DNA of 64,000 nt. Origin: Vairimorpha necatrix (Eukaryota). Position 1 is the stretch's first letter, and each line of letters begins with the position of its first letter. Location of the stretch: positions 124,001-188,000 of the forward strand of contig CP142733.1 of the NCBI GenBank assembly GCA_036630325.1, read 5' to 3'. The notes under the pieces were generated by a model. The model was not told the DNA's origin and did no database searches. It saw nothing but the letters and a program-made list of their open reading frames with translations. Below are positions 425 to 64,000 of the stretch, piece by piece. Both the position numbers and the translations under genes were made by a program.

Positions 425-1193
425 CCAGCCCGAGTCCTAAAGCGATGCTCATTAAGCATTGGTTGCGTTTAAATTCTTGAGGCACAAAAAATTGTTTCTA
501 CTTTCTATGATGTATTTGGAACAACTCAGATTATGCAATGTCATTGATATACATTAAATTAATATTTAAAACTTGTGTGCGTCCCCCATTAAGGGATTAT
601 CTTCTAGTGTAGAAACGCACTCAAGGCCGAAAAAAACATTACCCCCTGTTGTCACTTAATTATGCACAAAAGTTTCTGATGAGTGCGGCATAATCATAGC
701 CATTGATGATGCACTCTAGAATATAATTTTAGAACAAACTAAGAGATTAGACAAAGTAGTGTTCTTAGAGATAATGTGTACCCCTTCCTACAAGATGTTG
801 TAACGTGGTGGTCCTAACTAGTGTAGCTGGTGTTCAACGCGCTCCAATAAAAAATACCATGATGTCTATGTGACTGTGTAAGAAATCTAAGTCCGATACA
901 GATAATTTGGAGACCTTTGAGTTGGTATTATTAAATCTCTCGTCGGGGTATAGAAAACCATGCCCGTTAAGTATATCTGCAGTGAGGTCACTACGGACGC
1001 AATTTGAGGTTCGTATGAAAAGTGTTCTCCTGGATCCAAGTCCAATATGTTGGCGGAGCTTGCTGCTTTGACAAGTTATATGGATATAGTTTTAGTAGTA
1101 AGAATATTAAAGTACCAGTTGTATAAGGATCACACCAAAATTCTCTGGGTTATATGATTGGTTTCGCCTTACCAATTCTTGCAAAAAAAAAAA
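425..1193 (+). mobile_element. tRNA-headed ~770 bp dispersed non-coding element (SINE-like), copy A
   Basis: Colinear with the copies at 6.7, 11.9, 38.6/39.9 and 51.0 kb (shared ttgtttctactttctatgatg, gtagaaacgcac, ggcggagcttgctgc). Degenerate tRNA-like head; A-run at 1183-1193. Confidence 0.8.
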
Positions 1194-6578: not shown

Positions 6579-6712
6579 AAATGTTTTTTTGCAAATCATT
6601 TACCTAGAATTAGGAAATTTACAAATTTGTTTAAAATTTATTTGAAATAATAATTGTTTAATTTTAAAAAATTTTCCCCTTATAAAAATCTTAATAAAAT
6701 AATATACCAGTA

Positions 6713-7497
6713 TTTTTTTTCTTTTCAAGTAAGAGGAAGAGAGAACCCTTACATAAGGACCAGAGGTATTTAAATAAGAACCTTATCCAACCAGTACTGT
6801 GAGATTCTTACTCACTAAAACCACCTCCGTACAACATGCCGGTGCAGCAAGCTCCGTCGTATCCATTAGACTTTGGCTTCAGGAGGATACTTCCCATTTA
6901 TACCTCAAACGCATTCATAGTGATCTCACAGAGGATATGCTTAACGAGCATGGTTATCTATAAGCCGAGCACAGAGATCGTCGTACTAATTCAAAGGTTC
7001 CTACAAACATCTGTATTGCACACACGGCCCCTTAAACGAACACATCACCAGCCCGGCGTTTTATTAAACTGCGTTGACCATCATTCTCCCACTAGTTTTG
7101 GCCACCGTGGTACAGAATCTTGTATAAAGGGTCCACGAGACCTTCTATTGACTTACTTCGTTAGTCTCTTAGTTATCTCTAGGATTTCACTCTAGAGTGC
7201 ACCAACCATAGGCTCCAACTAGTCCGTACCCATTAGATACTTTTATGTATCATTAAGTTACCACAAAGGGATACTGTTTTTTTGGCTTTGAGATGCGTTT
7301 AAAAACTAGACGCTATTTTTTATAAGCTAAACGCATACAAGTTTCATTGTATCGGCATAAAAATTATTGTGGACAATTTTCATCATCTGAGTTGTATCAA
7401 CTGCATCATAGAAAGTAGAAACAAGTTTAGTGTCTCTGGAATTCGAACACGGGAATTGCTCAATAAAGCATGCCCCGATCACTGAGCCAATGTCGCT
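6713..7497 (-). mobile_element. tRNA-headed SINE-like element, copy B
   Basis: Reverse complement of the family. Head has an A-box-like tggctcagtga and a B-box-like gttcgaattcc; the tail is the T-run at 6713-6720 on +. Confidence 0.85.
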
Positions 7498-9219
7498 TTA
7501 GTGACATTTTATAAAATACACGAAGAAACGAATCATCGCGGAGTAAAAAAAACTTTTTATACGCATATTCAAAATAGTACTGGCTGTGTATAATAACAGG
7601 TAGCAAAAAACTTAGGAAACTTTGAAGTGCACAATAAAAATAACGGAAAACAATAAAAGGTTGCAAATATGTATTCAGAGACAGAACTCAGAAAAGAGGC
7701 TTTAGGTGTAATGAATCTTGTTGGAAAACAGATACGTGCTTTAAGGAATTAACGACCTTACGAGAAGAGCTTAAACATCTATTAAAAAGGACTCAAACAC
7801 CACTACAAAATTCATATTTGATAAAGGAGGTCAGATACTCAGCAAAATAAATTACGGACAATGAAAAAGTTTTTTTAATGGTAAAATAGAATGAGTATGC
7901 AACGTGAAGTTAGTTTAAAGGCTGGTAGAAGTACGAAAGGACACAAAGAAGCATGAGATCCGTGGGGTGATAATTTGGCATCAGTCAGAGAAGACGAATT
8001 AACTCACAATAAACATTGCTTCTCTTCGTAATACACCCTCTATGGACATGAGCTTCTTTTATGCAATTAGGCGAAATAATATAATACATTTGTCTTCTTT
8101 ATACTTAGTATAGACCAGGAAGAGAATACTTATACTATAAAGTTTCTAGTCTAAATGCAATCATAGGAACACTGGAGATCTGTTCCTCGACATCAATTAA
8201 CCATATTAAAATAATGATCATAAATTAACTATCGTATCTCGCGCTAAGCTTATTTATGGTTTTCATTTTTAACATATAATTGCTAAATTATTAAGGTAAT
8301 CTTGTAAAAAAAGATTGCACGTAAGATTGTTATGTACATTTTAGCCATAATAATATCAAAAAAGTGTTAAACTATGGTCGAAATAATCTAAACTTTTCTC
8401 CTATGATAGCAATATTTTTCATTCATAAACAAGAATGGTAATGACATTATGAAATGTAGGGAAAGATGTACGGCCCAAATGCGGCAATTATATTTTTTTA
8501 TTTAAAATGCTTATTTTAAAACATAAACGAATATAGATTTTTATATATTCTTTTTCATTCTAATATTCCTACCTAGCGATTAACCCCTGAGCTCGAACAC
8601 ATAGTCTTTTAACTCGTAAAAAACTATAATATCTTTGCTCCAATCCATTTTTTTTTGAATTATGCTAGTTAACATATTGTTTGAACTTGTATTAATTCAT
8701 AATTACAGACTAAGATTATTTAATTTTTTTAAAACTCTTTGGTTTTTAAAATTTACAAAAGAAATATTATGAGCTTATAATGTTAAAATAATGCCTTTTA
8801 TACACAAAATACTTAATTTGAATTTTTAATGCGTATCTCATGTGTTTTATTTTTGTTTCTAATTATTATTTTCAAACAAATTGGATCAAAGATAACGTCA
8901 AAATCGTTTTTCTGAATTTATTTAACCCTTCCGCAAGAAAAAATTTTCAAAAACGTTTAAGCGCCGAAAATTTTTTAATCATTGTGATAAAAATTTTAAC
9001 TACACAAGTTTTAAAATTATTTCATTGAGGTTTATAATTTCATTGTCTCCTTTTCTTTTACTAAAAAGGTTTTTTAGAAATTTACATATATTTTTCTTTT
9101 CCTTGTTAGAAATTTAAAAAACGATGCAAATTGAGGTCTATAATCTCAGTTTCTTCAAAACGAGAAAGTAAATTCTAATTCATAATAAAAAAATATTTAA
9201 CACACACTAAAAAAATAAA

Positions 9220-11920: not shown

Positions 11921-12655
11921 TTTAGCCTTTCTAGAGATGCTTACCTTGAGCAAATTCAGGTATAAATCCCAGGACACAAAACTTGTTTCTACTTTCTATG
12001 ATGCTGTTGGATCAACTCGATGATGAAATCTAAACGATAATCATCAAGTTGATATAATGAAAATTGTGTGTGTTCAGCCACAAGGGAATGGACGTCTGGT
12101 GTAGAAACGAACTTAAGGCCGAAAACAGTATCCCTCTTGTGGTGACTAAATGATGCATAAAAGTATCTAGTGGGTACGGCCTAGTTGGAGCCCATGGCTG
12201 GTACACTCCAAAGTAGATTTCTAAAGAAAACTGAGAGACTCGACGTTGTAAATTTAAAAATGTCCCGTGGATCCTATTCTACAAGATTCTGTAACACGGT
12301 GGCCGAAACTAGTGGGTGACTGGTGGTCAATGCAGGCCAATAAAAATTCCAGGCTGATGATTTGGGCGTATGTGCAATACAAATGATTGTTGGGACCTTT
12401 GAGTTAGTACGATGCTGCCTCTTTTCGGGGCATAGATAACCATGTTTGTTAAGTATATCCGCGCGAGGTCACTCTGGACTCGAATTGGGGGATAAATGGG
12501 AAAGTTCTCCTGGGCCAAAGTCCAATGGATACGGCGGAGCTTGCTGATTTGGCAAGTAATATAGAGGGAGTTATATTGAGTAAGAATCCCACAGTACTAA
12601 TTGGATAAAGATCACAATCAAATTTCTATGTAAGGTTTCTCCCCATCTAATATAT
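11921..12655 (+). mobile_element. tRNA-headed SINE-like element, copy C
   Basis: Colinear with the other copies from cttgtttctactttctatgatg to gtaaggtttctcccc; head is degenerate. Confidence 0.8.
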
Positions 12656-16698: not shown

Positions 16699-17375
16699 AA
16701 CAATAAATATAAAGACTTAATAAATATAAAATAAAATGTAAATAAAGCGCAAATGTACTTAAGACATATTGGAATTTAGATTTATAATGCATATATATAT
16801 ATACACATATATATTATATAATATATATACATTTTGCTTCATGTGGCCAAGTTTATTCCGGAGGTCGCTTGTGGGGGTTTCTTGCTTGCTCTATGTTAAA
16901 ATATGCTTTTTTCATGTTCTTAAGAGACTAGACGAAGTAGAGCAATATTAGACACAGTGTAACATAATGTTTATTGTGTTAATTTAATCTTGACAATATC
17001 ATTGTAAAAAAAAGGTACACAAGATATAGGCACTCTCTAAGTTCTTTTGCCCGTAAACGGGAGATATAATTGTAAGAACTCTATGTTACAAATGTGTCCC
17101 CGTTGCTTCTTAAATATTTTATAATAAATAAACCCATATTTTCATTCCAATAATAATGATCTGCTTACAATTAAAATATCTCTTTAATCTTGATTAAAAT
17201 ATTATTAAGCCTTTAAATACACTGCGCTTATAATTTATTTGTATACATCATATTCTATAAGACATATATTTTGGTGTAATTTATTTTTCTTTAAATTCAT
17301 GCTTGATTTTATTTTATGCTACAATAAATATAAAACCAATATTTATAAAACATAAAGTTAATTTTTTATTGATTT

Positions 17376-21847: not shown

Positions 21848-23263
21848 ATGGGATTACAAGAGTTCACAGATTTCTATAAAAAATTTTTCACTGAAGATGA
21901 TTGGTCAAATTTTATAACTTCTATAAATACGAAACTGCCTTCAGCTCTGCGTGTAACAGACACAAAATTTAAAGAAAAAATTTTTAATAAATTGTCCGTT
22001 AATTTAGTATTAAAAAATCAATATTTTAAAAATGTCTTTGATACAATACACAGAGGCCAAATACTCAAAGATTTTATTATCAACCAAACTAATATAGGCA
22101 ATATACAACGACAAGAAGTAGTAAGCATGCTACCAGTACTTTTAATGGGATTAAAAAATAATTACAGTGTACTTGATATGTGCGCCGCGCCCGGGTCAAA
22201 AACCAAACAATTATTAGAAATTAGTGATTTTGTAGTAGCAAACGATTGCAATTATAAAAGGCTTAACGTGTTAGTAACAGAAACATGTAAAATACCCAGA
22301 AAAGGTTTTTTAGTCTTGAAACATGACGCTTCGTCATTGCCAGTCTTCAAAAATGATTTTGATCGCGTACTTTGCGACGTACCTTGTTCTGGAGACGGAA
22401 CAGCAAGAAAAAATCCTACTATTTTAACCAACTGGAAGTTAAATAGTGCAATAGGTTTATCAAATTTACAATATAGAATATTAAAACATTCTTTGAAGTT
22501 TATAAAAGACACAGGATTAGTAATTTACAGTACATGTTCTTTAAATCCAATAGAAAATGAATGTATTATTAATAAAATAATAAATGAAGAAGATTTGGAG
22601 ATAATAGATTTAAGAGAGAATATTGATGAAAGAATAAGTAAAGAGTTTGTGTTTAGAGATGGGATGACGGAGATAAAAGAATATGGAGTATTTAATGAAG
22701 AACTTAAGAAATGTATAAGAGTTTATCCACATGACAATAATACAGGTGGATTTTTTATAACAGGATTGAGAAAGAAACAAAATATGAATAAAGAAAGAAC
22801 TAAAAGTGAGATTGTAACCACCAGTAATAATAATAGTATTTCTGATATTAGTGAAGAATGTAGAAAGAAATTACAAGAAGAATTTGATATATCAGAAAAA
22901 ATTATAATTTACAAAAATAAAAGTAAAAATACACTGTACGAAGTAAGCGACGACATATACAAAATAATGATGAACAATAAACTTAATATAATTCACTGTG
23001 GGTACAAGATATTTGAGAAGTGTACACTGTCAGAGACAGGATACAGAATGAAAAATATACCAGAGAAAAATGATAAATTTGATATTGAATTATCGGGGAA
23101 AGAAGTTATTGAAAATAAATCAGCGAAATTTACATATCAAAAAGGAAATGTTATAGTGAAACTAAGTGATTTTGATATAAAAATAGCGGGGTTTTCACAT
23201 GGAGAAAAAGTGAACTTATATATTTCTAATAATTTACAGAAAGCTTTATTAGATTTTTATTAA
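21848..23263 (+). CDS. NCL1: tRNA (cytosine-5)-methyltransferase, Trm4/Ncl1/NSUN2 family, copy 1
   Basis: QRQEVVSMLP, VLDMCAAPGSKT, FDRVLCDVPCSGDG, YSTCSLNPIENE, RVYPHDNNTGGFF. Confidence 0.92.
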   Translation: MGLQEFTDFYKKFFTEDDWSNFITSINTKLPSALRVTDTKFKEKIFNKLSVNLVLKNQYFKNVFDTIHRGQILKDFIINQTNIGNIQRQEVVSMLPVLLMGLKNNYSVLDMCAAPGSKTKQLLEISDFVVANDCNYKRLNVLVTETCKIPRKGFLVLKHDASSLPVFKNDFDRVLCDVPCSGDGTARKNPTILTNWKLNSAIGLSNLQYRILKHSLKFIKDTGLVIYSTCSLNPIENECIINKIINEEDLEIIDLRENIDERISKEFVFRDGMTEIKEYGVFNEELKKCIRVYPHDNNTGGFFITGLRKKQNMNKERTKSEIVTTSNNNSISDISEECRKKLQEEFDISEKIIIYKNKSKNTLYEVSDDIYKIMMNNKLNIIHCGYKIFEKCTLSETGYRMKNIPEKNDKFDIELSGKEVIENKSAKFTYQKGNVIVKLSDFDIKIAGFSHGEKVNLYISNNLQKALLDFY

Positions 23264-24300: not shown

Positions 24301-24410
24301 TTTTAAAAACACATTTTCTTATATTTTTTTTTACTTTTCAATTCTTAAAATTTTTTTATTAATTTTTTTAATATAAATTTTCTCCCCAAAAAATCCCCCT
24401 CATTATAATC

Positions 24411-26116
24411 ATGTCCTTCGAAAAGTTCGCCAGTTTCTACCGACCAATTCTAAATTTCTCTGAAGAAGATTTTTTCAATTTATTAACCATTATCAGAAAA
24501 CCTTTACCTTCATCTCTTCGTATCATCAATAATCAGTTTTATGAATTAATAAAACTTAGACTTACTAAAATGAAGAAATCTAAACATTTTAAAGATGTTT
24601 ACGAAGCTCCAAGACATTCTATACCCACTAGAGGGTTTATAGTTAATCAAACTAATATTGGCAATATACAACGACAAGAAGTAGTAAGCATGTTACCAGT
24701 ACTTTTAATGAAATTATCGAATAATTTTAGTGTACTTGATATGTGCGCTGCTCCAGGGTCGAAGACTAAACAGTTATTGGAATGTAGTCGATTAGTAGTT
24801 TGTAATGAAATAAGTTATAAAAGATTGAAAATTTTAATATCTGAGACTAGTAAAATACCAAGTAAAAATTTTTTAGTTTTAAAACATGACGCTTCGTTGT
24901 TACCAGTTTTCAAAAATGATTTTGATCGTGTACTTTGCGACGTACCTTGTTCTGGTGACGGTACAGCTCGTAAGAATTATGAAGTCATACCTAAGTGGTC
25001 AATAGACAATGCGTTGTCTTTATGTGAGTTACAATATAAGATATTGAAACAGGCTACTTGTTTTATAAATGATGGTATGATTATTTATAGTACTTGTTCG
25101 TTGAATCCTATAGAAAATGAGTGTATAGTAAGAAAGCTGTTTTAGAATTAGATTTGGAGATAGTAGATTTAAGAGAGAATGTTGATGATAGAATTAGTAA
25201 AGAGTTTAGGTTTAGAGAAGGATTTAGAAGATGGAAGACGATGAAGATTAATAATGAAGAAATTAGAGAGTATAAAGGGATTAAGTTAGAGAGTGTTGAT
25301 GAGGATATAGGATTAGAGAAATGTGTGCGAGTATTCCCACATGATCAAAATACAGGTGGATTTTTTATTACTGGTCTAAGAAAGCGTAAAATGTCGCAGT
25401 CTCTTCATGAGAATATTGAACTTAATAAAGAGAATATTTCAAACAACATACAAGTAGATGTGAATGTTGAAGATGAAAATTATTATAATATTGAAAAATC
25501 TATTAAAGATTTACAAATCAACAAAGACATAGTTACAAATTTATTAACTTTCGATGACAGAGATACAGATTTACAGATCAATGTAGACAGAGTTACAGAT
25601 TTATCAATCAACAAAGACAGAATAAAAAATTTACAAATCAACAAAGACAAAACAAAAAAAGACACTGTCGATTTCCATGTAGTTTCTAATGAACTAAAGG
25701 AGTCTTTATTTTCTCAATACAATATTACAAATATTAATGACTTTATTCTCATACAGAAACATGACAATTCTAAGTTTATTTATGAAGTCAGTAAAGAAGT
25801 CTTAGAAATCTTAAAGTCTAAATCTTTAAATGTCGCCTTTCATGGCTATAAAATGTTTGAGAAGTGCAGTTTCAGTAAATCGGGGTATTTCCTCAAGACT
25901 GTCCCTAAGGAATTTAAACATGACATTGTGTTAAGAGGGAGTTTATTAGTAGAAGGAATAAAGAACAAGACAGTGAGTATGCCTTTTAAAGTAGGGTGTG
26001 TGATTATATTACTTTATGATTATAATATTAAAGTGAGTGGGTATTCACACGGGGAATATATTAGTATTAATATTGAGAATAAACTTCAGAGGGCCTTAAG
26101 AGATTTCTTAAGATGA
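24411..26116 (+). pseudogene. NCL1: Trm4/NSUN2 family copy 2, one frameshift at ~25130
   Basis: ORFs 24411-25145 and 25121-26116 join into a full paralog if one base is added at gtaagaaagctgtt. Carries a DLQINKD repeat insertion (~25500-25650). Could be an assembly error. Confidence 0.8.
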
Positions 26117-29377: not shown

Positions 29378-29690
29378 AAAAAACTACTTAAAAAAGAGTT
29401 CATTTTGTCGGAATATTCACATTTTAATGTATGTTGATTTATATAAAAAAAACATAATGTTTAATTATATATTTTAAAACATAAAAAAATAAACTTAAAA
29501 AGAGTTCATTTTGTCGGAATATTTACATTTTAATATACGTTGATTTAAATAAAAAAACATAAAGTTTGGTTTTATATTTTAAACATAAAAAACTACTTAA
29601 AAAAGAGTTCATTTTGTCGGAATATTCACATTTTAATATACGTTGATTAATATATATTACAGCATAATATTTGGTTTTATATTTCATTTA
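29378..29690. repeat. ~105 bp tandem repeat, 3 copies, upstream of the secreted gene
   Basis: gagttcattttgtcggaatatt at 29396, 29502 and 29605. Confidence 0.85.
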
Positions 29691-31211
29691 AAAAAAAAAT
29701 TTAATGAATGATGCCATATTTAAAAATCGATTAATATCATAATTTAAATGGGTATAGATTCATGTATTTAGAATTTCCTACATGGCCGGATTAGCAACCT
29801 CTAGAATTGAGTCCAATAGGAATTTTCTTTCGTTTCTCTTTCCTCTATCGGCCCCGGTCCGATTCCGTACTCGAAAGCTGCCTAATGATAATAATTATAA
29901 TTATTAAGGTATAATTTAAACACTGAGCAATGATTTCTTATTATTATTGTACAAATACTCAAAGTCTATTGTTATAGTCGACAAGAATGTGATACCCCCA
30001 GTATATATTATATGTTAAAAAACTGTACCTTTTAACATATCAACGTTTATGTTAAAATCGGCCCTAAAGCAATATCCCCATTATTTTATAATAAGCCATT
30101 TGTATGAATTTTACGCTAAGACAACAACCGCACCTTAAGAGAAGACCTTGTATTTATTTGTACATATGGTCAGAATATGCGATATATGTCTAAAACCCCG
30201 TTATAAAATTTTTTACTTCGCTTGTAGTGTAAATATATGTTGCTGGTGTCGGTATCATCCATCTTTGATAATTTTTTTTTAATAATTTCGCAAACTACCT
30301 ATAAATGGTCTCATAAATTTAGAGATTAATGTTTAAACCCAATACCTGTATATTTTATAAAACGATGGCATTTCACAAAACTTGCTAAGCATCGCCTATT
30401 TACATAATAACTCGATAAGATTACCAATTATGTGGACTAAAATTGTAACTTTTAATGTTTAGATGCAAGCTCGAGATTAGTTCGACAAACTTGTATTAAA
30501 TTTATATAATTGATGATCGCTAAAAGACTATATAGTTCGTATACAAATGTCTAAAGACACATTTATCGAAACGCATATAATATTTTTAAATGCAAAATAG
30601 TTTTTGAAGAATATCTCACAACTTAAAATTATATATTACGGACCTTTATATTATATTTTACGTGCAAACAAGTCACATTAATACTAATACAAGTATTCTT
30701 ATGCATAGTTTTATTGTAAACATCGTCAAAAGAAGAATAAAGCCAAAAAAATAATGTTTGAACAAGGATAAAAAGATAAATGGGAACAAAGATGTAGAAA
30801 CGGAAATCAGAATACAGACTATGACATACAATAGCAAAAAAAATCAAGTATCGTTTGTTAAACTATAAGAATTTATAAAAATAAAACAGGCAAAAAGTTA
30901 AACTGTTCCGATAATACTAGTTTTAATTTTTATGCATAAAAACTTGACTTTCTAAAATTCATAATCACATGTTAAAAAAACGCCCCAAGACGTGTATAAC
31001 CCCAATAAAAAAATGCTAAATGTTCCTATAGGCCTAAATTTTGGAGCGCGCTTTTTTGTTATCTATCAAGTGGAGATTTGAAATAATTACAATAGTATCT
31101 TTGCTGGCTAAGAGGCGATCGTAAAGTATATAAATAGTCAAATACGGAAAATAAAAGGTGACTGTTGTTTTTTATGAAGTAAATAAGACCTTAAAAGTTA
31201 TTGAAAGACAT

Positions 31212-34200
31212 TGGGGTATTATCCACATGCCTAGAAAATCATTTTTTCTGATAAAAACTTTTTCTAGAAAAAATGAATTTTCTAGAATTTTATTTTTTTT
31301 TAAATTTTTTTTTTGAAAAGAAGGGCATGAGCTACGAGAAGAGAAGTCATAAGCAAAGCTATGACAGGTCAAAACTTAACAAAGACCAATACAGGCCAGA
31401 AGAGCCTATAATAAAAAAAATTATTTAGAAATGTATTTTAAACTGGGCAAAGTCCCCAGTAATAACGTCAAGTTGAATTCAACGAGGTTAAACATTAACA
31501 GTAATCCAGGAAACATTAAAGAAGATGGGTATACTGAATTCGAAAAGAATATTATCGAATACACTATTAAGTGTAAAGAAAAAATCTTAAAAATATATGA
31601 TATAAAGACTCAGCTCACTCTTAAGCAGTTAGATAAATTTGAAGAATTGGGAAAGGCTAACAAATGGCCATAATTTACTTATCATGTATCTACGATGAAA
31701 GAAAAGAAACTCTTACAAGTAATTCGTATTTAGTTCTCAGAAAAAGGCTTTTAGATATAATTTATCCGCCTGAGCGGAAGAGACAATGCATCAGGGATTT
31801 AGATGCTATTAATCAATCCAATTATACTACCATTAAAGATTATGAGGAGATTATAGGAGAAAGACTTTTAGCATATAGCTATTACAATAGTCTCACTAAG
31901 AAGGAGACCCAAAATAAAAAGGAAGAATTATTTTTAAAAGGATTGGGCGATTTTACGCATTTGGAATTAACGCGTTTAAATATGATTAATCGACCCATAA
32001 TTGAAATTTATGAATATCTAATTCAAGTTGAAAACGAATTAGTAATAAACATGAGTCAAAAGCCAGATCAAATGATTCGAAACTACAACTCAATAACTGG
32101 TAAATTGAATGAGAAGAAATGGTGTAGTTTTCATAAGAGTAACATTTCCCACGATACGAAACATTGCTACTTGCAAAAAAATAAAAATAATCAAAGACAA
32201 GAAAGTAATTATAAACCTGACAAAAATATGATTATTAAATTAAGAAAAAAAATAATTGAAGATGTTATAGTTGAAGGTACTATAAATAACCAAAAGGTAG
32301 ATATTCTAGTAGACAGCGGATCAAAAAATAATTACATTAATAAAGAAGAAGTGAATCGACTGAAATTACAAGTCGTCGAAGGCAAAAAGCTAAAAACAAT
32401 CTTTGGAAACAATACTACCTTAGAATGCGATAAAAAGGTTAATGTAGAATTATTCTTAAAAGATAGGGCCTTTAACACTAGCTTTTACGTATTAGAACAG
32501 GCTCCTGTTAACTTCATCCTGGGCAACGATTTCTTATACAATGTTAACGCGAAGGTTGACTATCAAGCAGGAGTGGTAGAAATAGATAAAATATTATTGG
32601 AAATTCAAGGAATGGAGGAAGAAGCTGGAGAACGACTAGATAAATATTTAGAAAATAAGTCATGCATTGTTAGCGAAGATGAAAAGTTAAATAAATTTGT
32701 TGAACTCTACAAGCAAAATAACAAAAGTTTTAAATACTTGGAAGGAGAATTTGCATCCTTTAATATAAAAGAAAATATCCCTGTAATTAAAAGAAAGGCA
32801 TACACTGTTCCCTTTCAATATATAAATAAGGCAAAGGAAGAAATTAAAAGACTTGTAAAAGAAGATATTATAGAGAAAAGTTTTTCAAATACAGTTAGTC
32901 CTGCATTCTTTATAGAAAAGAAGAATAAAGATCTTAGGCTGGTGGTAGATTACAGAGAAGTTAATAAAGTTATAGAAGATGACCCTTGGATACTACCAAA
33001 TATTGATAATTGCTTAATTAACATGGGGGAAAATGAATATTTCTCACAATTAGACCTTAGTAATGGGTTTAATCAAATAAGAATTGATGAAAAAAGCAAA
33101 GAGATTACATCGTTTTTCCTATTAGGACAGCAGTGGCAGTATAAAAGAATTCCATTTGGAATCAAGCCCGGTCCAAAACTATTTCAAAGGTATATTTTAA
33201 ACATTTTAGGTGATATAGATAATGTATTTGTTTTTATTGATGACATAATCATATATAATTTGACGAAGTCTGATCATATTAAAACCGTACATATGGTGTT
33301 AAAGAGATTATATGATAAAGGAATACAAATCAACTTTGACAAATCAAAATTTTTCCAGAAAGAAATAGAAGTATTAGGATATAGAGTTAACAATAAAGGG
33401 ATTTTCCCTAAGACGAGTTATTTAGAAAACTCGATTTTTAATAAAGAAATAAAAACAAGGCGAGATTTGCAGAAATTACTTGGAGTATTAAATTGGTACA
33501 GAAGATTTATACCAGACATGTCTAGAAAAATTAGCAGCATTACAAACATGTTGTCAAATAAGAATAAAGCGATAAAATTAATTCAAATATGAAGAATGAA
33601 ATAGATAAGATTAAAATGTGGATTAAAGAAAAACATCATCTAAGTTTTCCAGACTACTCAAAAAGGTTTATGCTAGAAAGCGATGCTAGCGATATAGGAA
33701 TGGGAAGTGTACTTATACAAGAAGGAAAGGTAATCAGATACTTTAGTAAGAAATTTTCAGGTTCAGAATTAAATTACACAATCGTAGAAAAGGAGTTCTT
33801 AGCAATCATACTATCCTTACTTGGATTTAAAAATATCATACAAGGTTCTCATGTGGAAGTATTAACGGATAGTAAAAATTGTATCTATGAAAATAAAGCC
33901 TCAAGTTCAAGGATTAGCAGGTGGAAGTTGCTGTTAAACGAATTCTGTCATACAATCAAACATGTAAATGGAAAGGAGAACTGTTTGGCAGATCAACTAT
34001 CTAGAAATCAAGCGTCACTTTTACATCAAAATGAAGAAAACGCAGTCAACACAACAAACATTATAAAAGAATGTTGTCTCTATAAAAAAAATGGATCATT
34101 TTTAACAGATCAAAACAACAGGATCATTATAAAAAAAGGAAAGGCAGAGAGGTTTTTAGAATTTATGCACAAGTATAGTGAACATAGAGGAAGTAGCACG

Positions 34201-35316
34201 CTGTATTACAACCTAAAGAATTATTATTATATAAGTGGGAGTTTAAAAGAATAATAATAAATATAACAAAGAAATGTAACACATGTGGTGTGTTCAAAGG
34301 TAATAACTATTTAAGATATGAAAAAAGTAAAATGATAGCGACGGAAAAATTTGAGAAGATTAGTACGGATATATATGGACCGTTTAATTTAGATAATTTC
34401 ATAACTTCTGGTAGAAAAGAGGTAGGATATATCCTAACAATTACGGATATATATTCGAGGTTTACTCGATTATATTTTTTATACACAGTAAAATCAGAGT
34501 CAGTAATTCAAGCTCTAGAAAATTGGATAGAAACGTACGGCAAGCCAAAAACTTTAATATCAGACAATGGGCGCCAATACATAAGCAAGCAAACTAGAGA
34601 ATTCTTAGCTGAACAACAGATTATACATACATTAATACCTACATATACCCCTAGTTCTAATGGTATATCAGAAGCTATCAACAAGACAATTACATTTGTG
34701 TTGAGTATAAATAAAGGTAAAGAAATTAGACTCGCTCTTGCAAACGCAGAAAATGCGATAAACCGAAATTATAATAGGAATATAGGCAAATCACCATTCT
34801 CCATCATAAACGAATATGATGAATACGATCCTATGCGAAGACCAATATCATATAAATATCCTTATAGTGCGACCACTTTACAGTTAGCTAAAGTGGGAGA
34901 ATTCTGCCGAGAACGCTTATTTAATCCTGATAAGCTTGGATATAAATTTACAAAATTACGAAGAATCGAAGCGGTTAGTAAGAAAGGATATTGGGTCAGG
35001 TTAAAGGGGAATATAGGTTGGAGCCACATCAAAAATCTAAAGTTCTAGGAGAGGCAGACTGTGGTATTATCCACATGCCTAGAAAATCATTTTTTCTGAA
35101 AAAAACTTTTTCTAGAAAAAATGAATTTTCTAGAATTTTATTTTTTTTAAATATTTATTTTTGAAAAGAAGGGCATGAGCTACGAGAAGAGAAGTTATAA
35201 GCAAAGCTATGACAGGTCAAAACTTAACAAAGACCAATACAGGCCAGAAGAGCCTATAATAAAAAATTATTTAGAAATATATTTTAAACTGGGCAAAGTC
35301 CCCAGTAATAACGTCA
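31212..35316 (+). mobile_element. Full-length Ty3/gypsy LTR retrotransposon (frameshifted)
   Basis: LTRs 31212-31470 and 35060-35316 (TG...CA, near-identical); TSD gacat (31207-31211 and 35317-35321); purine-rich aggagaggcagac before the 3' LTR; domain order PR-RT-RH-IN. Confidence 0.95.
31328..35048 (+). pseudogene. gag-pol polyprotein broken by about 4 frameshifts
   Basis: Zn knuckle WCSFHKSNISHDTKHC, protease LVDSGS, RT LDLSNGFNQ/FIDDII, RNase H SDASDIG/YTIVEKE, integrase TDIYGP/SDNGRQY/NGISE across ORFs 31431, 31664, 33589 and 34290. Confidence 0.9.
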
Positions 35317-38610: not shown

Positions 38611-40618
38611 GGAGCCCTTAGCCCAGAGGTAGAAGGCAATGCTTCCATTGAGCAATGTCTGGGTTCGATTCCAAGGGGCACCAAAATTGTTTCTACTTTC
38701 GGCGCTACTTTATTTTCTTGCCCCCCTAGAAAAAAAAATTATTTAGAAGAAATTTTTTTTATTCCAACTTACACAGTTCTAAAATTACTATATAAGCACA
38801 CCTATGAACATCATTATTAGAATGATTGATATTTCTTTTTTTCCAAGCAAATTCTTTTAGAAATAAATTTATCCTATGCCTTTTAAGCCCACTTCTCGAT
38901 CTATATTCATTCTTCAAATGGGACCACAAATTTTTTATATTATTTGTGTGGTCTCCTTCTGCATTTATAAATCCAAGCGAATGATTTACTATGTAATGTT
39001 CACTCCCAAAATTTCTAGAGGCTGAAGGGTATGAAGGGTATCCATCAGTAATTATAATAGAGCCACGTTTTACTCTGCGTTTAAAAAAGTCTTCAATAGT
39101 ACTAGATTGTCGATTCGGTAGCAATTCAAGAATAAATTCTCCACAATTACCTTCTAATATGCCGCCCATAATCCATTGAATTCCAGTCATGGAATCCAAA
39201 GTTAATGAAGGATTGGATACAATTACCCCGTTGCATATAGCGGTTTCATCAAATTGTACACGAACAGAAGTTCCACCATTTTGGTAGCTATCATCGCTTT
39301 TAGAAGCAATGATCTCCATCACTGTATCCTTGATTTTAATATATGAATTTTCACATATTTTGCAAAGATCTATCGCTTGTTAAGTAGTATAATTAAATAC
39401 CCAGCAATAGAGTGTTCTAAGGATTTTGTGAAATGGAACGCTTATCCTCTTAACATCGTACCATTTTTAAGTGAGCTCTTCGAACTACACTTTTTATTAA
39501 CACAACGATAAGCTTTGCCGTCAATGTAGCCGGAACATCAACAAATGTTCACATGAACAGTTCGTTCTGATGTCGAACAATGTCTGCAAGCAATCGATCT
39601 TTTTAGAAGACCATTATCTAAAAAAAATCAATTGTTGCTTCATTGTTCCTAAAGCACGCATCTTCGCAGATATTTAGCTCTCGAATAGCCTCCTGCAGAT
39701 TCCTCATTAGGGGGTTTAAAAATTTTAATTTTTTAACCCCTTTATGAGGAATCTGAAGGAGGCATTTAAAAATTCTCAAATCGACAAAAAATACCTTAAC
39801 TTCATTTTCTTGCCCCCCTCAAAAAAAAATGTTTAGATTTGAAAAATAACACCATTTTGTATCTTTTTATTGATGTTTTTTTAGGGGGGCAAGAAAATGA
39901 AGTAGAGCCCTACTTTCTATGATGCAGTTGGAACAACTCAGAAGAAGAAAATGTCCACGATAATCATTAAGTTGATTCAATGAAACTTGTGTGTGTCCAG
40001 CCACAAGGAAATTAGCATCTAGTGTAGAAACGCACCTCAAGGCTAAAAAACAGTATCATCCCTGTGGTGATTTAATGATACATAAAAGTATCTAATGAGT
40101 ACGGCCTAGTTGGAGCCTATGGCTGGTGCACTCTAGAGTGGGATCCTAGAGATAACTAAGAGACTAGACGAAGTGGGGCAATAGAAGGTCTCGTGGACTC
40201 TATCCTACATGATTTTGTAACACGGTGGCCGAAACTAGTGGGAGACTGGTGGTCAACGCAGCCCAATAAAAACGCAGACTGGGGATGTGGTCGTGTAAGG
40301 AGCCGTGTGTGCAAAACAGATGATTGTAGGGACCTTTGAGTCAGTACGATGATGTCTCTCCTCGGGTTATAGATAACCATGCCCGTTCAGTATATCCGCT
40401 GCGAGGTCACTCTATACGCGATTTGAGGTATAAATGGAAAGTGTTCTCCTGGAGCCAAATTCCAATGGATACGGCGGAGCTTGCTGCACCGGCAAGTTGT
40501 ATGGAGGAATTTTTAGTGAGTAAGAATCTCACAGTACCAGTTAGATGAGGATCACACCCAAACCCCTCTGGCCCCTATGTAAGGTTTCTCCCTACCTCTT
40601 ACTTGCAAGAAAAAAAAC
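38611..40618 (+). mobile_element. tRNA-headed SINE-like element, copy D, split by a Merlin insertion
   Basis: Head 38611-38700 with A-box tagcccagagg (38619-38629) and B-box ggttcgattcc (38662-38672). Body resumes at 39910 and ends in an A-tail at ~40610. Confidence 0.9.
38701..39909 (-). mobile_element. Merlin/IS1016 transposon with 8-bp TSD
   Basis: TIRs ggcgctactttattttcttgcccccc and its near reverse complement; TSD ctactttc (38693-38700 and 39910-39917). Transposase pseudogene 39707-38759 (VQFDET, IITDGYPSY, VNHS, HTNNIKNLW). Confidence 0.92.
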
Positions 40619-41965
40619 AAAAAAAGATATAAAAACATTTGGTTTTCTTGCGCATGAATTATTTGGACAAAAAATCATCCGCTTACTAAAAAATTATTCT
40701 TTGATATTAGCATTACGAATAAATACGGGCAAATTTTTCTTTCTGCAATTACCCCAATTTAGAAATTTAAGTAATAATGAAAATGGGGGAAAAAAAACAA
40801 CAAAAATAATAAAGTAAAAAACTAAACGTAAATAAATCAGAGAGACCAAAAGCAAAGCGAATATAACGTTTAAAAAACAAAGAGGTAGTTAAATGAACTT
40901 GGATCGCCCTTGCTAGTAATTTATAGTTTTGATTTTTAGTAAGTTCTTGAAAAAAAAATATTATTATAAGTGTAAAACAATAAATTATAATTACAAAAAC
41001 ATTCGAAACTAAAATATTATAGATATTTGAATCACGACTTTAATAAGAACTATAACAATAAATTTGAGTTTTCGATAAAAAATGCAAGCTTAAATATAAA
41101 TAATATTGTTGGATAACTGTAAATAGAGATAATATTATTAAATGCCCCTTATGTCTACTATTCTCAACAAATATTTATTTTTGAAATTGTATTAATAGAA
41201 TGAGACACAAAATTATGATTGTTTTCATTATTTTAAAATTCACAAAATTTAATTAAGGAACTAAAAATGGGTTATAGATAGATTATAAATTTGCTTTACG
41301 GAGGTTGTCTATAGAAAAATTCTAATGATTTGAAAACATTATTGTTTACATGACTATTTATACATTTTGGATTTTTAGAATATTTATGAATAAATTATCA
41401 CATGATTCCTCTTTGCAATTTCGGCCTTCCGTTTGACGAGTGCAACACGTCCTATTTTAGAATAATTGATACTTTTATGATATAATAAATTAAATCATAA
41501 AATTAAAAAGTTATAACGCAATAAATAAATATGGTGTTCAATATATTATTTTTCTTTTTTATAATTAGATGACTAGTAGTATGCCTTTTCGTTTTAAAAA
41601 CGGGGTTTATAGATCATATTTTATAATATGTATCTTATTTATTTTTTAAGTTTCATTTTTGTGAAGTAAGAATTAAAGAGAAAGAAAAAAAATGATTTTA
41701 AACAAAAAAATACTTTTTAATATGTCTTATTAATGTAATGTCGTTTAAAGCAATTTTGAATTCTAAAAGATAATTTCAGATAATTTTTATATACAGACTC
41801 GGGTTCTTACTTTTAAAAATTTTGATCTTAAACACCGTTGCAGTTTTTTGTGCAAAGGTTAAATAAATCCCCAAAACGACTCTGACGATATTTCGGAACT
41901 AAGTTTTGCAAAAATAATAATTAAATTACAATAAATTTATGTATAGTACACCTCTTAAAAATTGC

Positions 41966-43435: not shown

Positions 43436-44454
43436 TGCTAAAGTAAGCATTAGCTACAAAAAATCGATATAGAGTTTTTTTGTTTTTTTTTGCCCCTTTT
43501 TTTAAAAAATGGAGGAAAGAAAATGATGAGGAAGGAACAAAAATAAAAACTAGAATAAATATTTTAATAAATCTTCAAACACAGGAGTTGTGGAGTTTCT
43601 TTGGATCATATATCTAAATAAATAAAGTTTAGTACTATTCGATGATCTGTTTCTATTTGGTATAGAATGGTTTTGAGATAACCAAGTACTTTCTATGGTA
43701 TTGGTATGTACTCCTGTATTCGGATCTCTAAAATGTAATGTATGATTAGCCATATGATGTTGGTTAAATATTGTATTTAAAGAATGATACGCTCTCCACA
43801 TATCGCTATATACAATACTGCTTCTACTTACATATTTTAAAAGAAGTTCAGTAAGTGTTCTTTTGTCTTTTTTCTTAATATATACTACTATGATTCTACG
43901 TTGGATGGTACGTTCAACCATTCCAAAACACCAAAATCCTTTTACTAACTTCCCCTGTTGTATTTATTCTTCCCAATCTTAGTCTCATCAATTTCCACTA
44001 TAGTATTATCGCCTCCAAGAGTCACTATACTAGATAAATACTTATCATAAAGACTCATTTCTTTTACTTTTTTAGCACGAAAGATATAGAAGGTTTAGTA
44101 CAACCTAAAACATGAGAAATGGACTTACGCGAATAACCTAGAATCAATATATTTAGTATTTGTAATATTGTACTGTAATTTAGCCTAGGATCCTGAAAGA
44201 AAGTTTCATTCCAAATTGAAGTTGTGTGTTTACATGAGCTCCATGGACACCTTATACACTTCTTTGCTCCACTCCTTGCTTCGTTTTTCGGTTACAGACG
44301 CTACAAATTTTATTTTGTTTCTTAATTATTAGATCATTATATATGATCTCCAATTATTCTCTTGTCCGAATTCTTTCCTCCATTTTTAAAAAAAAGGGGC
44401 AAAAAAACAAAAAAACCCAATATCGATTTTTTGTAGCTAATGCTTACTTTAGCC
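43436..44454 (-). mobile_element. Merlin-type transposon, long-TIR family, copy 2 (decayed)
   Basis: Same TIRs; 5-bp TSD tttat (43431-43435 and 44455-44459); ORF 43550-43921 MVERT...YSDMWRAY...HTNTIESTW. Confidence 0.9.
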
Positions 44455-50149: not shown

Positions 50150-50347
50150 GCGTGGCCCGTAACTTTGCGGTCGATGGCGTTATGACTTACATAAAAAATC
50201 CAGCCTCAGTTCTGACAGGCATCATAAATTTTTCTAAAAATACAATGTCTCAACGTTATATTTAGGTTGATTAATGAAACTTGTGTGGTGACCTGCCAAA
50301 ATAAATTTCCGACTCATTGAAAAACGTACCTTAAGGTCAGAAATGCC
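50150..50347 (+). mobile_element. Truncated, old copy E of the tRNA-headed element
   Basis: gttgattaatgaaacttgtgtg...aaacgtaccttaagg matches the 5' domain of the family. Confidence 0.5.
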
Positions 50348-51038: not shown

Positions 51039-51770
51039 TGCCCAGCCTGTTGGTCGAAGGCAGAGTTTGCGATTTGACAATGCCGAGTGCGACCACCAGA
51101 TGCACCGAAATGTTTCTACTATCTGTGATGCAGTTGGAACAACTCAGATGATTTAAATGTCTACAATATTTACATAAAAGATTCAATGAAAATTGTGTGC
51201 GTCACGCCATAAGAGATTAGCATCTACCGTAGAAACCACCACAAGACCGAAAAATTCATATCCACTAGTGGAGACTATATGATACATAAAAGTATCAGAT
51301 AATATTGCTTAGTGAAGTCCGTGGCTAGTGCACTTTGTGGTGAGATCTCAGAGCTAACTAGACGCAATAGAGCAATAGAAAGTCTCGTGAGCTCTATGAT
51401 ACAGGATCCTGTAACACGGCGGCTGAAATTAGTGGAAGATGATGGTCAACGCAGCCCAATAAAATGTCGGGCTGAAAATTTGGGGATGTAAAGTGCCAGT
51501 GTTAGATGTAGATATTAATAGAGAAAATATAGTTTCCGCAGTGGGTTCCTTCTGAGTTATTAAACAACTCTTATTAAGTATATCAGTTGTAAAGTCGATC
51601 TGGACTTGACTAAGTGTATAGATAGGAAAATGTTCTCCTGGTGTCAAAGTCCAGTGAATACGACGGAGCTTGCTGCGCCAGCTAGTTATATAGAGGATGT
51701 TTTGGTAAGCAAGAATCTCACCCATGTCGTCTTGGTCTCTATGTAAGAAATCTGCCTTTACAAGCAAAAG
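51039..51770 (+). mobile_element. tRNA-headed SINE-like element, copy F
   Basis: Colinear from tgtttctact...gatgcagttggaacaactcag to ctatgtaag; central part diverged. Confidence 0.8.
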
Positions 51771-52354
51771 ATGAAATCTTTTTTATATTTTTTGCAAATT
51801 TAGTTCCAACAATCAAGTACAGATATCTAGTTTAGAAAACTAAATCTTAAATCAAAATCTTCTTTTAATATTGTACTTCGTAAGACTACACTTAAATGCA
51901 AACACCAAGTGCACTCTTTTGGTGATAAAATCGGTATAAATTTATATGAGAACACCACGCAAAATTGAATAAAATGTTTAAACACTTATGACAGTTTAAT
52001 TCATGTTTATGCCGACTATAATGCGACAAAATAGTATTTATTTGTGAAATTGTAAATATATTATGTATCTAATATTAAATAATGATTATATTTCAATATT
52101 ATAATTCTTTTCAGATTTAGTTTTGTGTATAAACATCTCACATATGTTTCATTTCAGTCAGTGATATTTCAATGTACTCATCAACATGCAAGATAATTAC
52201 TAATATTCAAAGTTGATTTATTTATTAAGACAAAAAACTTTACATTAGCTCAGTTATAAGTCAATTATTTTGTTCTTGTGCTAGAATAAATATTCTTCAA
52301 TATTTTTTTTGTATAAGTCTCAATGCTAATTTTCTTGGTTTTTTATACCCCTTT

Positions 52355-58933: not shown

Positions 58934-59376
58934 AATCAAGGGTAAAAGAAAAAAAGAAGAAAAATATATTCATTTAGTTTAAGAGACTAGACGAAGTAGG
59001 GCAATAATTTAGAGATGATATAAACAAGGGATTTGAGATTTGTTATAGTTCTAATATATTATAACACTGTAATAATATATTATGATATTCTAATAATATA
59101 TTATGAAGGATTTATATATTACGACAGTATTAATAATATATTATGACATTCTTATATATTATTACTGTTCTAATAATATATTACTATTTTATAGATCTCC
59201 TTAAATTGCAACCTATAAAATGAGATTTAGTCTGTCAAATATGAAGTCATTCCATCAAATGAGATTCTGCATTTTATCAAATATGTAAGATTCTAATCAA
59301 ATATGTAAGATTCTAATCATGTGAGTTCATCCCCTTTTCTTTCTGTTCCTTTTCTATGTGATTTTTTTATCCCTTT

Positions 59377-63890: not shown

Positions 63891-63985
63891 TCCCGCTTTG
63901 AAAAAATCAAGAAAAGGGAAAAATTTAAAAAATTATAAAAAAAGAGACTTGACGATTTATTTTGAATCCAGAAAGAAGTCGATTA
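63891..63985. mobile_element. Second copy of the subterminal region of the 5928-6578 element
   Basis: cccgctttgaaaaaa...aaaagggaaaaat...gacttga.gatttatttt matches ~5946-6030; outer TIR absent. Confidence 0.65.
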
Positions 63986-64000
63986 ATCCTTTGATTTTTT

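What the first reader, a model, noticed from the sequence alone, without database searches (positions are those of the whole stretch)
38611..40618. Long tRNA-headed, structured, non-coding mobile RNA family (six copies in 64 kb)
Seen: a ~770 bp element at 425, 6713 (-), 11921, 38611/39910, 50150 (partial) and 51039. The best head folds into an imperfect cloverleaf with Pol III A and B boxes. The body is clearly more GC-rich than its flanks, has few sense-strand T-runs, has no ORF shared between copies and ends in an A-tail where intact. A long-range stem recurs (gtttctac...gtagaaac; 494-501 with 609-616 in copy A, also C, D, F), as do hairpins agttg/caact, ttgtg/cacaa and gagtRc/cactc. Known: tRNA-derived SINEs have this head and tail but are usually shorter. 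I recall a ~700 bp dispersed repeat reported in Nosema ceranae, but cannot confirm it is the same family. Inference: a Pol III-transcribed retroposon whose large folded body may have its own function.
Basis: partly seen in the sequence, partly recalled or inferred. Interest (0 to 1): 0.78.

Follow-up and report, generated by a model that had tools for sequence, protein, structure and literature searches.

The report
Long tRNA-headed SINE-like retroposon family
A non-coding mobile element of about 770 bases, with a worn tRNA-like front end and an A-rich tail, is scattered through this microsporidian genome; it looks like an unusually long SINE, and nothing shows that its body is a specially folded, functional RNA.

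Summary
The repeat family is real. There are five near-full copies and one fragment in 64 kb, 74-83% alike in the body, on both strands, non-coding, and richer in G+C (36-44%) than their surroundings. The window comes from Vairimorpha necatrix.

The finding's own copy (D) is closest to the family consensus (5.3% off). It alone keeps a recognisable tRNA-like head: an ARAGORN tRNA-Met cloverleaf at a relaxed threshold, tRNA as the best Rfam hit at only 14.6 bits, and the only good A-box/B-box pair in the window. D is split by a 1,209-bp Merlin-type DNA transposon with an 8-bp target duplication.

A public run holds many related contigs. Their majority letters match the consensus at 28 of 28 listed sites where copy B differs, so copies decay privately from a common source.

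The "structured body" idea fails. Folding energies equal those of shuffles, and compensatory pairs do not exceed a fair null (20 against 17.4±3.6). Rfam finds nothing.

No target-site duplications, LINE partner or transcript could be shown. A link to the ~700-bp Nosema ceranae repeat is unconfirmed.

Best reading: an over-long, old, tRNA-derived SINE-like retroposon. It is a new member of a known kind and of moderate interest.

The parts
425..1193 (+). Copy A, full length, old (19.5% from the 5-copy consensus, 36% G+C), tail A11
6713..7490 (-). Copy B, full length (11.1% from consensus), weak A/B boxes (2 mismatches each), tail AAAAGAAAAAAAA
   Evidence: public-run contigs laid on it
11921..12650 (+). 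Copy C (13.2% from consensus), 3' end degenerate, no A-tail
38611..38700 (+). Copy D, 5' part. tRNA-like head 38611-38683 (ARAGORN tRNA-Met CAT at 90% threshold). A box 38619-38629 is TAGCCCAGAGG; B box 38662-38672 is GGTTCGATTCC. It is followed by the head-body junction CACCAAAATTGTTTCTACTTTC
38701..39909 (-). Not part of the family: a 1,209-bp Merlin/IS1595-type DNA transposon inserted into copy D. It has ~35-bp terminal inverted repeats and an 8-bp target duplication CTACTTTC (38693-38700 and 39910-39917). ORF 38759-39319(-) matches PF12762
39910..40625 (+). Copy D, body and A-rich tail (AAGAAAAAAAACAAAAAAA); closest to the consensus (5.3%), 44% G+C
50248..50343 (+). Fragment E. Only this ~100 nt is significantly alike (E 1.7e-7).
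51039..51776 (+). Copy F, oldest (22.8% from consensus), internal deletions, degenerate tail

Best explanation
This is a family of dead copies of a non-autonomous, non-coding retroposon of the SINE type in Vairimorpha necatrix.

The source ('master') element is inferred to be about 760-780 nt long. It has a head of about 73 nt derived from a tRNA (tRNA-Met-like, anticodon CAT), which carries the internal A and B boxes of an RNA polymerase III promoter. A body of about 690 nt of unknown origin follows, at about 43-44% G+C, ending in a short A-rich tail.

Inferred mechanism: Pol III (or read-through) transcripts of source copies are reverse-transcribed and inserted by the enzymes of an autonomous non-LTR element, which primes on the A-rich tail. 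After insertion each copy decays on its own under the genome's G+C-to-A+T bias, and the head boxes are lost with age.

Shown here:
- the family, its layout and the lack of coding;
- private decay of copies from a common consensus;
- the tRNA-like head in the youngest copy;
- the later Merlin insertion into that copy.

Inferred only: Pol III transcription, the RNA intermediate and the LINE partner.
For: Family and layout:
- Five copies share head, body and tail in the same order, on both strands, between unrelated flanks.

Head of copy D:
- ARAGORN calls tRNA-Met(CAT) at 38611-38683 at 90% threshold, with a 6/7 acceptor stem.
- tRNA is the top Rfam hit of 4,227 families on the 121-nt stretch (14.6 bits, E = 1). 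My inference: since tRNA was the one family asked about in advance, this is about 2e-4 for that family alone.
- An A-box/B-box pair with at most 1 mismatch each occurs once in 128 kb of both strands, exactly here, and 0 times in 30 shuffles.

Decay pattern:
- D is the copy nearest the consensus (5.3%, against 11-23% for the others).
- The older copies show 1.6-2.3 times more GC>AT than AT>GC changes, which fits decay of a G+C-richer source.
- In public run X1, 795 contig pieces at 80% likeness or more lie on the 3.5 kb around copy B.
- At 28 of 28 listed sites inside B where these contigs differ from B, their majority letter is the one held by at least 2 of the other 4 window copies. At 26 of 28 it is D's letter.
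- At the head-body junction the majority letters (sites 7425 and 7429) restore D's CACCAAAAT.

Other features:
- A-rich tails sit at the same alignment position in 3 of 5 copies, 4 counting the degenerate one.
- No coding signal.
- Non-LTR elements are reported in related Nosema genomes (4 LINE families in N. ceranae; passages of PMC4202319).
Against: - The tRNA score is far below Rfam's gathering score (14.6 against 29). ARAGORN at default finds no tRNA in the window. The heads of B and F give no tRNA hit at E up to 10. So 1 of the 3 heads tested by Rfam and 1 of 6 by ARAGORN look tRNA-like.
- Head columns are more diverged than the body (mean pairwise identity 0.45-0.54 against 0.61-0.89 across the body proper; the 3'-terminal ~80 columns fall to 0.51-0.57).
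- No convincing target-site duplication at any of 5 copies; only non-adjacent 6-8-mers in A+T-rich flanks.
- No non-LTR reverse transcriptase was found among the 43 window ORFs scanned with Pfam, so no partner or shared 3' end could be shown.
- A T4-5 run conserved in 4 of 5 copies about 100 nt before the 3' end could stop Pol III.
- Length without the tail (~760-780 nt) exceeds the SINEBase definition (<700 bp; known range 75-662 nt).
- Fragment E is cut at its 3' side, not its 5' side.
Confidence: 0.55

Rival explanations
1. A SINE-like non-autonomous retroposon transcribed by RNA polymerase II, as reported for Eg-R1 of Blumeria. In this reading the tRNA-like head is a relic, for example of a template switch onto a tRNA when the first copy was made, and does not drive transcription.
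For: - The element is long and has a conserved T4-5 run inside it.
- An invariant AATAAA lies mid-body (A2 invariant columns A356-A362).
- Only one head keeps good boxes.
- Eg-R1 is a precedent: a non-autonomous non-LTR element with more than 3,000 copies, transcribed by Pol II (passages of PMC6022598).
- Cornman et al. noted a candidate Pol II promoter in the ~700-bp N. ceranae repeat (PMC2685015, section 13).
Against: - Eg-R1 lacks A and B boxes, whereas the copy nearest the consensus here has both, at the very 5' end.
- The AATAAA lies about 340 nt before the tail, so it is not its polyadenylation signal.
- T4 is a weak terminator in fungi (recalled, not tested).
Confidence: 0.2
2. One reading: the ~690-nt body is a conserved, highly structured RNA with a function of its own, possibly a ribozyme.
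For: - The 5' stem GUUUCUAC/GUAGAAAC closes a ~120-nt domain in 4 of 5 copies.
- One copy (C) folds that domain at z = -3.18.
- Consensus folding energy is -68.3 against -57.2±6.1 kcal/mol for column shuffles (z about -1.8).
- The count of structure pairs gave 20 pairs with changes on both sides against 10.3±2.6 in its shuffles, 0 of 500 reaching 20.
- The source keeps ~43% G+C in a 28% G+C genome.
Against: - Whole-body MFE z-scores are no better than shuffles, and no better on the sense than on the antisense strand (+1.04/+0.46 for D, -1.23/-0.51 for B).
- The other four 5' domains give z from -0.59 to -1.34.
- The RNAalifold covariation term is positive, +5.3.
- The excess disappears once the structure-selection bias is copied. 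RNAalifold on 88 column-shuffled alignments gives 17.4±3.6 such pairs (21 of 88 reach 20) and 88.2±1.1% paired cells, against 88.8% observed.
- Rfam finds no family at gathering level in the window. On copy D it finds no ribozyme or other family in the body at E up to 10, apart from chance-level rows. On copy B it finds nothing at E up to 1.
- Five sequences give little power, so this is absence of support, not disproof.
Confidence: 0.05
3. Read on the opposite strand, the unit is an LTR (TG...CA) followed after 4 nt by a primer-binding site that starts TGG and runs on as the complement of a whole tRNA. That would make it a remnant or by-product of an LTR retrotransposon, of the strong-stop-DNA type.
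For: - The body begins TG and ends CA on either strand (TGTTTC...CTTGCA).
- The junction CACCAAAAT|TG reads on the other strand CA|ATTT|TGGTG, the usual LTR-spacer-PBS layout.
- Ohshima and Okada proposed that tRNA-derived SINEs arose from strong-stop DNA (recalled; not in the library).
Against: - The purine/A-rich run sits on the wrong strand and the wrong side for a polypurine tract.
- Homology ends exactly at the tRNA 5' end in all copies.
- There are no paired LTRs and no 4-6-bp duplications.
- The only LTR element in the window (31212-35316) has unrelated 260-bp LTRs and a different sequence after its 5' LTR.
- ARAGORN can fold the 'CCA' bases into the acceptor stem, so the CCA reading is ambiguous.
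Confidence: 0.07
4. A DNA-level repeat, such as a non-autonomous Helitron or other DNA transposon, or a dispersed segmental repeat. The head and tail would then resemble a SINE by chance.
For: - The window is full of DNA transposons: two Merlin-like ORFs and a TIR element at 5918-6590.
- No TSDs were found.
- Helitrons are reported in related species (PMC4202319).
Against: - The family has no terminal inverted repeats (one search shows inverted matches only for the Merlin insert).
- It has no 5'-TC/3'-CTRR Helitron ends.
- The A/B-box pair at the 5' end and the A-run at the 3' end are each placed as in SINEs.
Confidence: 0.05

Closest known systems
tRNA-derived SINEs (as defined in SINEBase, PMC3531059; passages seen)
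   Same: The layout is head, body of unknown origin and tail, which SINEBase gives as the commonest SINE pattern (41% of families). The head is tRNA-like with A and B boxes. The element is non-coding, dispersed and in both orientations. Copies decay privately from a common source.
   Different: About 760-780 nt without the tail, against <700 bp by definition and 75-662 nt in the 175 listed families. [quoted passage not shown] TSDs, a LINE partner and Pol III transcription are not shown here.
The ~700-bp 'novel dispersed repeat' of Nosema ceranae (Cornman et al. 2009, PMC2685015; section 13 read in full)
   Same: It comes from the same clade of microsporidia. It has a conserved core of ~700 bp, no coding potential, no match in GenBank or Repbase at the time, high copy number (250 contigs) and more than one subtype.
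   Different: It is described as often tandem and as carrying a candidate Pol II promoter; no tRNA head or A-tail is mentioned. Of 15 conserved words of the V. necatrix family, 11 of the 11 that are 11 nt or longer are absent from the stored N. ceranae contig text. That text is cut short per contig, so absence is weak evidence. Its figure S2 is an image I could not read.
Eg-R1 / Egh24 SINE-like retroposons of Blumeria (PMC6022598; passages seen)
   Same: Long, non-autonomous, very abundant non-LTR-type retroposons in an obligate biotrophic parasite with a repeat-inflated genome.
   Different: Eg-R1 has no A/B boxes, is transcribed by Pol II with a working AAUAAA, lacks a genomic poly(A) stretch and encodes a peptide. 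The element here has A/B boxes in its best copy, genomic A-tails and no coding signal.
AfuSINE2 tRNA-related SINEs of Aspergillus fumigatus (PMC5063351; abstract seen)
   Same: [quoted passage not shown]
   Different: They are 140-493 bp, low in copy number, and have clear 4-14-bp TSDs. Here the element is ~770 bp, abundant, and no TSDs were found.

Membership tests
SINE (SINEBase definition) | Non-autonomous: encodes no protein | tested here: met
   No ORF is shared. The consensus antisense open frame of 118 codons equals the 95th percentile of 1,000 shuffles, and codon-phase variability is not coding-like. Pfam finds nothing on the two longest ORFs.
SINE (SINEBase definition) | Head derived from a Pol III RNA (tRNA) with internal A and B boxes | tested here: inconclusive
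   Met in copy D only (ARAGORN at 90% threshold; Rfam tRNA 14.6 bits; unique A/B pair). Heads B and F give no tRNA hit. Family-wide majority letters at the junction agree with D.
SINE (SINEBase definition) | Short: <700 bp | tested here: not met
   About 760-780 nt without the tail in copies B and D, against 75-662 nt in 175 families.
SINE (SINEBase definition) | 3' tail of simple, often A-rich repeats | tested here: met
   A, B and D have A-rich runs of 11-19 nt at the same alignment position. F is degenerate and C lacks one.
SINE (SINEBase definition) | Transcribed by RNA polymerase III | not testable with these tools
   No RNA run was listed for the stretch. A conserved internal T4-5 run is a caveat.
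SINE (SINEBase definition) | Reverse transcription by a partner LINE (often a shared 3' end); flanking TSDs | tested here: inconclusive
   No non-LTR RT in the window and no genome held, so the 3' end could not be compared. No convincing TSD at 5 of 5 copies, all of which are old.
Rfam tRNA (RF00005) | Score at or above the gathering threshold (29 bits) | tested here: not met
   14.6 bits for the D head. No hit for the B or F heads. ARAGORN at default finds 0 tRNAs in the window. The head is tRNA-derived at best, not a tRNA gene.
N. ceranae ~700-bp dispersed repeat | Sequence likeness to that repeat | tested here: inconclusive
   Only word look-ups in a truncated contig text were possible. 0 hits for 11 of 15 words. 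TGTTTCTACT occurs 3 times and GGCCACCGTG 2 times, with no further likeness by eye.
Solo LTR / LTR retrotransposon remnant | TG...CA ends with 4-6-bp TSD; paired LTRs around an internal region; polypurine tract before the 3' LTR | tested here: not met
   TG...CA is present, but there are no TSDs and no pairs. The A/G run is on the wrong side and strand. The window's Ty3/gypsy LTRs are unrelated.

The most novel reading that the evidence does not exclude
This may be the first SINE family characterised in Microsporidia, and the longest tRNA-headed SINE on record at about 770 nt. It may be present at the order of a thousand copies and so make up several per cent of the V. necatrix genome. Its source copies hold about 43% G+C against a strong A+T mutation bias in a 28% G+C genome. 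That would mean either selection on the body of the source RNA, for example for recognition by its partner's reverse transcriptase, or a recent arrival by horizontal transfer from an insect host. If the unclassified ~700-bp repeat of Nosema ceranae has the same architecture, this reading would also classify that repeat, open since 2009.
Probability: 0.35. Interest if true: 0.5.

Novelty: new member of a known kind. Interest (0 to 1): 0.35.

Why it matters
About half of the V. necatrix genome is repeats, and the genome paper does not classify them beyond a RepeatModeler run (passages of PMC10759460). In the papers I searched, SINEs in microsporidia appear only as lines in RepeatMasker tables (0.18% in N. 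bombycis; 0 in Microsporidia sp. MB). My searches listed no paper that describes such a family.

A head-to-tail description of an abundant non-autonomous retroposon would help in three ways. It would help annotate these genomes. It would point to an active non-LTR partner. It would give insertion markers for strain and haplotype history in a tetraploid parasite.

The element is not, on present evidence, a new kind of RNA.

Tried and rejected
- Whole genome: none is held.
- RNA evidence: no RNA holder was listed for copy B with 100-nt flanks. The single run X1 is of uncertain kind ('DNA?') and held 0.12 of the words. This says nothing on expression.
- Read laying depths: summed word depth on the element is 1,400-66,600, against 16.2 for the one B-specific piece and 7-88 in the covered unique bins. 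The tool states that such depths are neither copy numbers nor comparable between parts, and X1 may be the window's own sample. I use only the letters, not the depths. My rough figure of 'about a thousand copies' is an extrapolation from 5.5 copies in 64 kb to a 15-Mb genome.
- More copies from public collections: the pattern TGTTTCTACTWTCTRTGATG gave 11 metagenome, 9 prokaryote-genome and 2 viral loci. All 22 match nothing beyond the pattern itself. The 19-nt core of the 27-nt motif gave 0 viral loci. A phage-collection blastn found no match.
- Lepidopteran SINE supplements (PMC8010984): 0 of 6 words found (sense orientation only).
- My first MFE-shuffle script timed out. It was replaced by strand folding.
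- The Protein Atlas gave no taxon.
- TSD search: negative.
- Antisense-ORF idea: rejected.
- The LTR+PBS reading and a Helitron reading were considered and set low; see the rivals.
- A possible 3'-CCA after the tRNA part of D, which would point to a mature-tRNA origin, is ambiguous. cmscan leaves CCA outside the tRNA, while ARAGORN pairs those bases in the acceptor stem.
Full report
WHAT IS THERE

BLAST of the finding's region against the window and a multiple alignment show one repeat family.
- Five near-full copies: A 425-1193 (+), B 6713-7490 (-), C 11921-~12650 (+), D 38611-38700 plus 39910-40625 (+), and F 51039-~51776 (+).
- One fragment, E. Only 50248-50343 is significant (E 1.7e-7). 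E's supposed head is no more like the other heads than shuffled sequence is.
- Body identity to D is 74.5% (A), 83.5% (B), 80.2% (C) and 77-82% (F).
- A profile of the five copies finds no further copy in the window.
- The copies have 36-44% G+C, while most copy-free 1-kb bins have 20-30%.
- The flanks are unrelated, so the unit begins at or near the tRNA-like head and ends at an A-rich run.

ORGANISM

- The window's NSUN2-like protein sits on a contig of 1,094,101 bp.
- A protein named '[Vairimorpha necatrix]' lies on a contig of the same length. It is encoded in the window at 24372-26113 at 100% and 99.7% identity.
- The window is therefore V. necatrix, a microsporidian. Its published genome is 15 Mb, 28.3% G+C and about 50% repeats, which the genome paper does not classify beyond a RepeatModeler run (passages of PMC10759460).

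WHAT SPLITS COPY D

- The 1,209 bp at 38701-39909 have ~35-bp terminal inverted repeats (38701-38735 against 39909-39876, 91%).
- They are flanked by the 8-bp duplication CTACTTTC (38693-38700 and 39910-39917).
- They carry an ORF (38759-39319, minus strand) that matches the IS1595/ISXO2 transposase domain PF12762 (E 3e-12).
- This is a Merlin-type DNA transposon that landed in the retroposon copy later.

THE HEAD

- ARAGORN at default finds no tRNA in 64 kb.
- At 90% threshold it folds D's head (38611-38683) as tRNA-Met(CAT), with a 6/7 acceptor stem, a 3-bp D stem and one mismatch in the anticodon stem. It finds nothing in the other five heads.
- On the 121-nt stretch, tRNA is Rfam's top hit of 4,227 families. 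The score is only 14.6 bits (gathering score 29; E = 1). For the single family asked about in advance I take this as roughly 2e-4; that figure is my inference.
- The heads of B and F give no tRNA hit at E up to 10.
- An A-box (TRGCNNAGTGG) and B-box (GGTTCGANNCC) pair with at most 1 mismatch each, 20-60 nt apart, occurs once on both strands of the window. It sits at D's head (TAGCCCAGAGG / GGTTCGATTCC), and occurs 0 times in 30 shuffles. B's head passes only at 2 mismatches each, where chance gives 1.6 per window.

WHY ONLY D

Against the majority consensus of the five bodies, D differs at 5.3%, B at 11.1%, C at 13.2%, A at 19.5% and F at 22.8%. The four older copies show 1.6-2.3 times more GC>AT than AT>GC changes. 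The head is best kept in the youngest copy and worn in the others. Even so, the head columns are more diverged than the body (0.45-0.54 against 0.61-0.89 mean pairwise identity), which I cannot fully explain.

AN INDEPENDENT LOOK AT THE FAMILY

- The one public run offered (X1, kind uncertain, possibly the window's own sample) was laid on 5500-9000 at 80% likeness or more. 795 contig pieces lie there.
- Table 3 of that call lists 28 sites inside copy B where these contigs differ from B. At all 28 the majority letter is the one held by at least two of the other four window copies. At 26 of 28 it is D's letter.
- Two further sites at the head-body junction (7425, 7429) restore D's CACCAAAAT.
- So B's differences are private mutations, the family at large sits near D, and the junction with the head belongs to the repeated unit.
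- This is the star-like pattern expected of copies thrown off by a few source elements.
- The tool warns against using its depths as copy numbers, and I do not.

IS THE BODY A STRUCTURED RNA?

The long-range stem is present in 4 of 5 copies (broken in B) and AGTTG/CAACT is intact in 3 of 5. Every test of selection for structure fails:
- Whole-body MFE z-scores against dinucleotide shuffles are +1.04 (D sense), +0.46 (D antisense), -1.23 (B sense) and -0.51 (B antisense).
- The ~126-nt 5' domain gives z = -1.34, -0.82, -3.18, -0.75 and -0.59.
- RNAalifold on the five bodies gives -68.3 kcal/mol with a positive covariation term of +5.3.
- The count of structure pairs on that structure shows 20 pairs with changes on both sides against 10.3±2.6 in its shuffles. 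But the structure was chosen on the same alignment.
- When RNAalifold is run on 88 column-shuffled alignments and scored the same way, 17.4±3.6 such pairs appear, and 21 of 88 reach 20. Paired cells are 88.2±1.1% against 88.8% observed. The energy z-score is about -1.8.
- Rfam finds nothing at gathering level in the window. It finds no ribozyme or other credible family on copy D at E up to 10, and nothing on copy B at E up to 1.

With five sequences the power is low, so this is lack of support rather than disproof.

CODING

- Open frames of 76-130 codons lie on the antisense strand of all five copies.
- The consensus frame of 118 codons equals the 95th percentile of 1,000 shuffles.
- Variability by codon phase is highest at the would-be second position.
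- Pfam finds nothing on the two longest frames.
- There is no coding signal.

RETROPOSITION

For:
- the tRNA-like head with Pol III boxes;
- A-rich tails at a fixed position (A, B and D clear, F degenerate, C none);
- both orientations;
- private decay from a common source.

Missing:
- no convincing TSD at any of five (old) copies;
- no non-LTR reverse transcriptase among the 43 ORFs scanned, so no partner;
- no RNA data.

A T4-5 run kept in 4 of 5 copies about 100 nt before the 3' end would be a Pol III stop in some organisms. T4+ runs are otherwise only mildly depleted (1-3 against 2.0-4.7 expected).

OTHER READINGS

- On the opposite strand the junction reads CA|ATTT|TGGTG..., like LTR-spacer-PBS, and the body is TG...CA. 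But the purine run is on the wrong side and strand for a polypurine tract. There are no pairs or short TSDs. The window's Ty3/gypsy element (31212-35316) has unrelated LTRs.
- This layout does recall the strong-stop-DNA model for the origin of tRNA-SINEs. That model is recalled; the paper is not in the library.
- A Pol II-driven SINE-like element such as Eg-R1 of Blumeria (passages of PMC6022598) is the main rival.

COMPARISON WITH WHAT IS KNOWN

[quoted passage not shown] This element, at about 760-780 nt without the tail, is longer.
- Cornman et al. 2009 (PMC2685015; section 13 read in full) describe a ~700-bp non-coding dispersed repeat on 250 N. ceranae contigs. It has no database match and a candidate Pol II promoter. 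Their figure S2 is an image I could not read.
- 15 words conserved in the V. necatrix family were looked up in the truncated contig text of their supplement. All 11 words of 11 nt or more have no hit.
- My literature searches listed no paper that characterises a SINE in microsporidia. The papers I opened mention SINEs only as RepeatMasker table lines or not at all.

VERDICT

The element is most likely an over-long, old, tRNA-derived SINE-type retroposon (0.55), with a Pol II-driven SINE-like element as the main rival (0.2). The claim of a functional folded body is not supported (0.05). It is a new member of a known kind and of moderate interest.

Noticed in passing
window 16921-16947 and 58980-59006 (also 40157-40183 inside copy D): A 27-nt block, TAAGAGACTAGACGAAGTAGRGCAATA, matches the family consensus exactly. 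It stands alone at two intergenic sites with no other likeness around it (0 expected by chance in 100 shuffles). It is better kept there than inside most copies. Its meaning is unknown: it could be a protein- or small-RNA-binding site, or a patch copied from the element.
   Followed up: partly
window 38701-39909: A non-autonomous Merlin/IS1595-type DNA transposon with ~35-bp TIRs and an 8-bp TSD, inserted in copy D. A second Merlin-like ORF lies at 43553-43963 (-) (PF12762, E 8e-14).
   Followed up: yes
window 31212-35316: A Ty3/gypsy LTR retrotransposon with ~260-bp LTRs that are 97-98% alike (31212-31470 and 35060-35316). Protease-RT, RNase H and integrase lie in three successive frames, so pol is probably broken by frameshifts.
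   Followed up: partly
window 5918-6590: Another repeat with ~40-bp terminal inverted repeats (87.5%) lies next to the tail of copy B. A related piece is at 63892-63999. It is very deeply covered in run X1.
   Followed up: partly
window 21848-23263 and 24372-26113: Two NSUN2-type tRNA cytosine-C5 methyltransferase paralogues lie side by side. The second is read in two frames (24372-25142 and 25121-26113), which the public annotation joins into one 499-aa protein, so it has an intron or a frameshift.
   Followed up: partly
window 29400-29700 and 59050-59183: Short tandem arrays (~105-bp units, 3 copies; and ~40-50-bp units) in intergenic DNA.
   Followed up: no
supplement file 1 of PMC2685015 (contigs Nc001906 and Nc003684): Two N. 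ceranae contigs share a repeat that contains GGCCACCGTG, one of the family's 10-mers. By eye nothing else matches. I could not align them because that sequence may not be typed into the tools.
   Followed up: no
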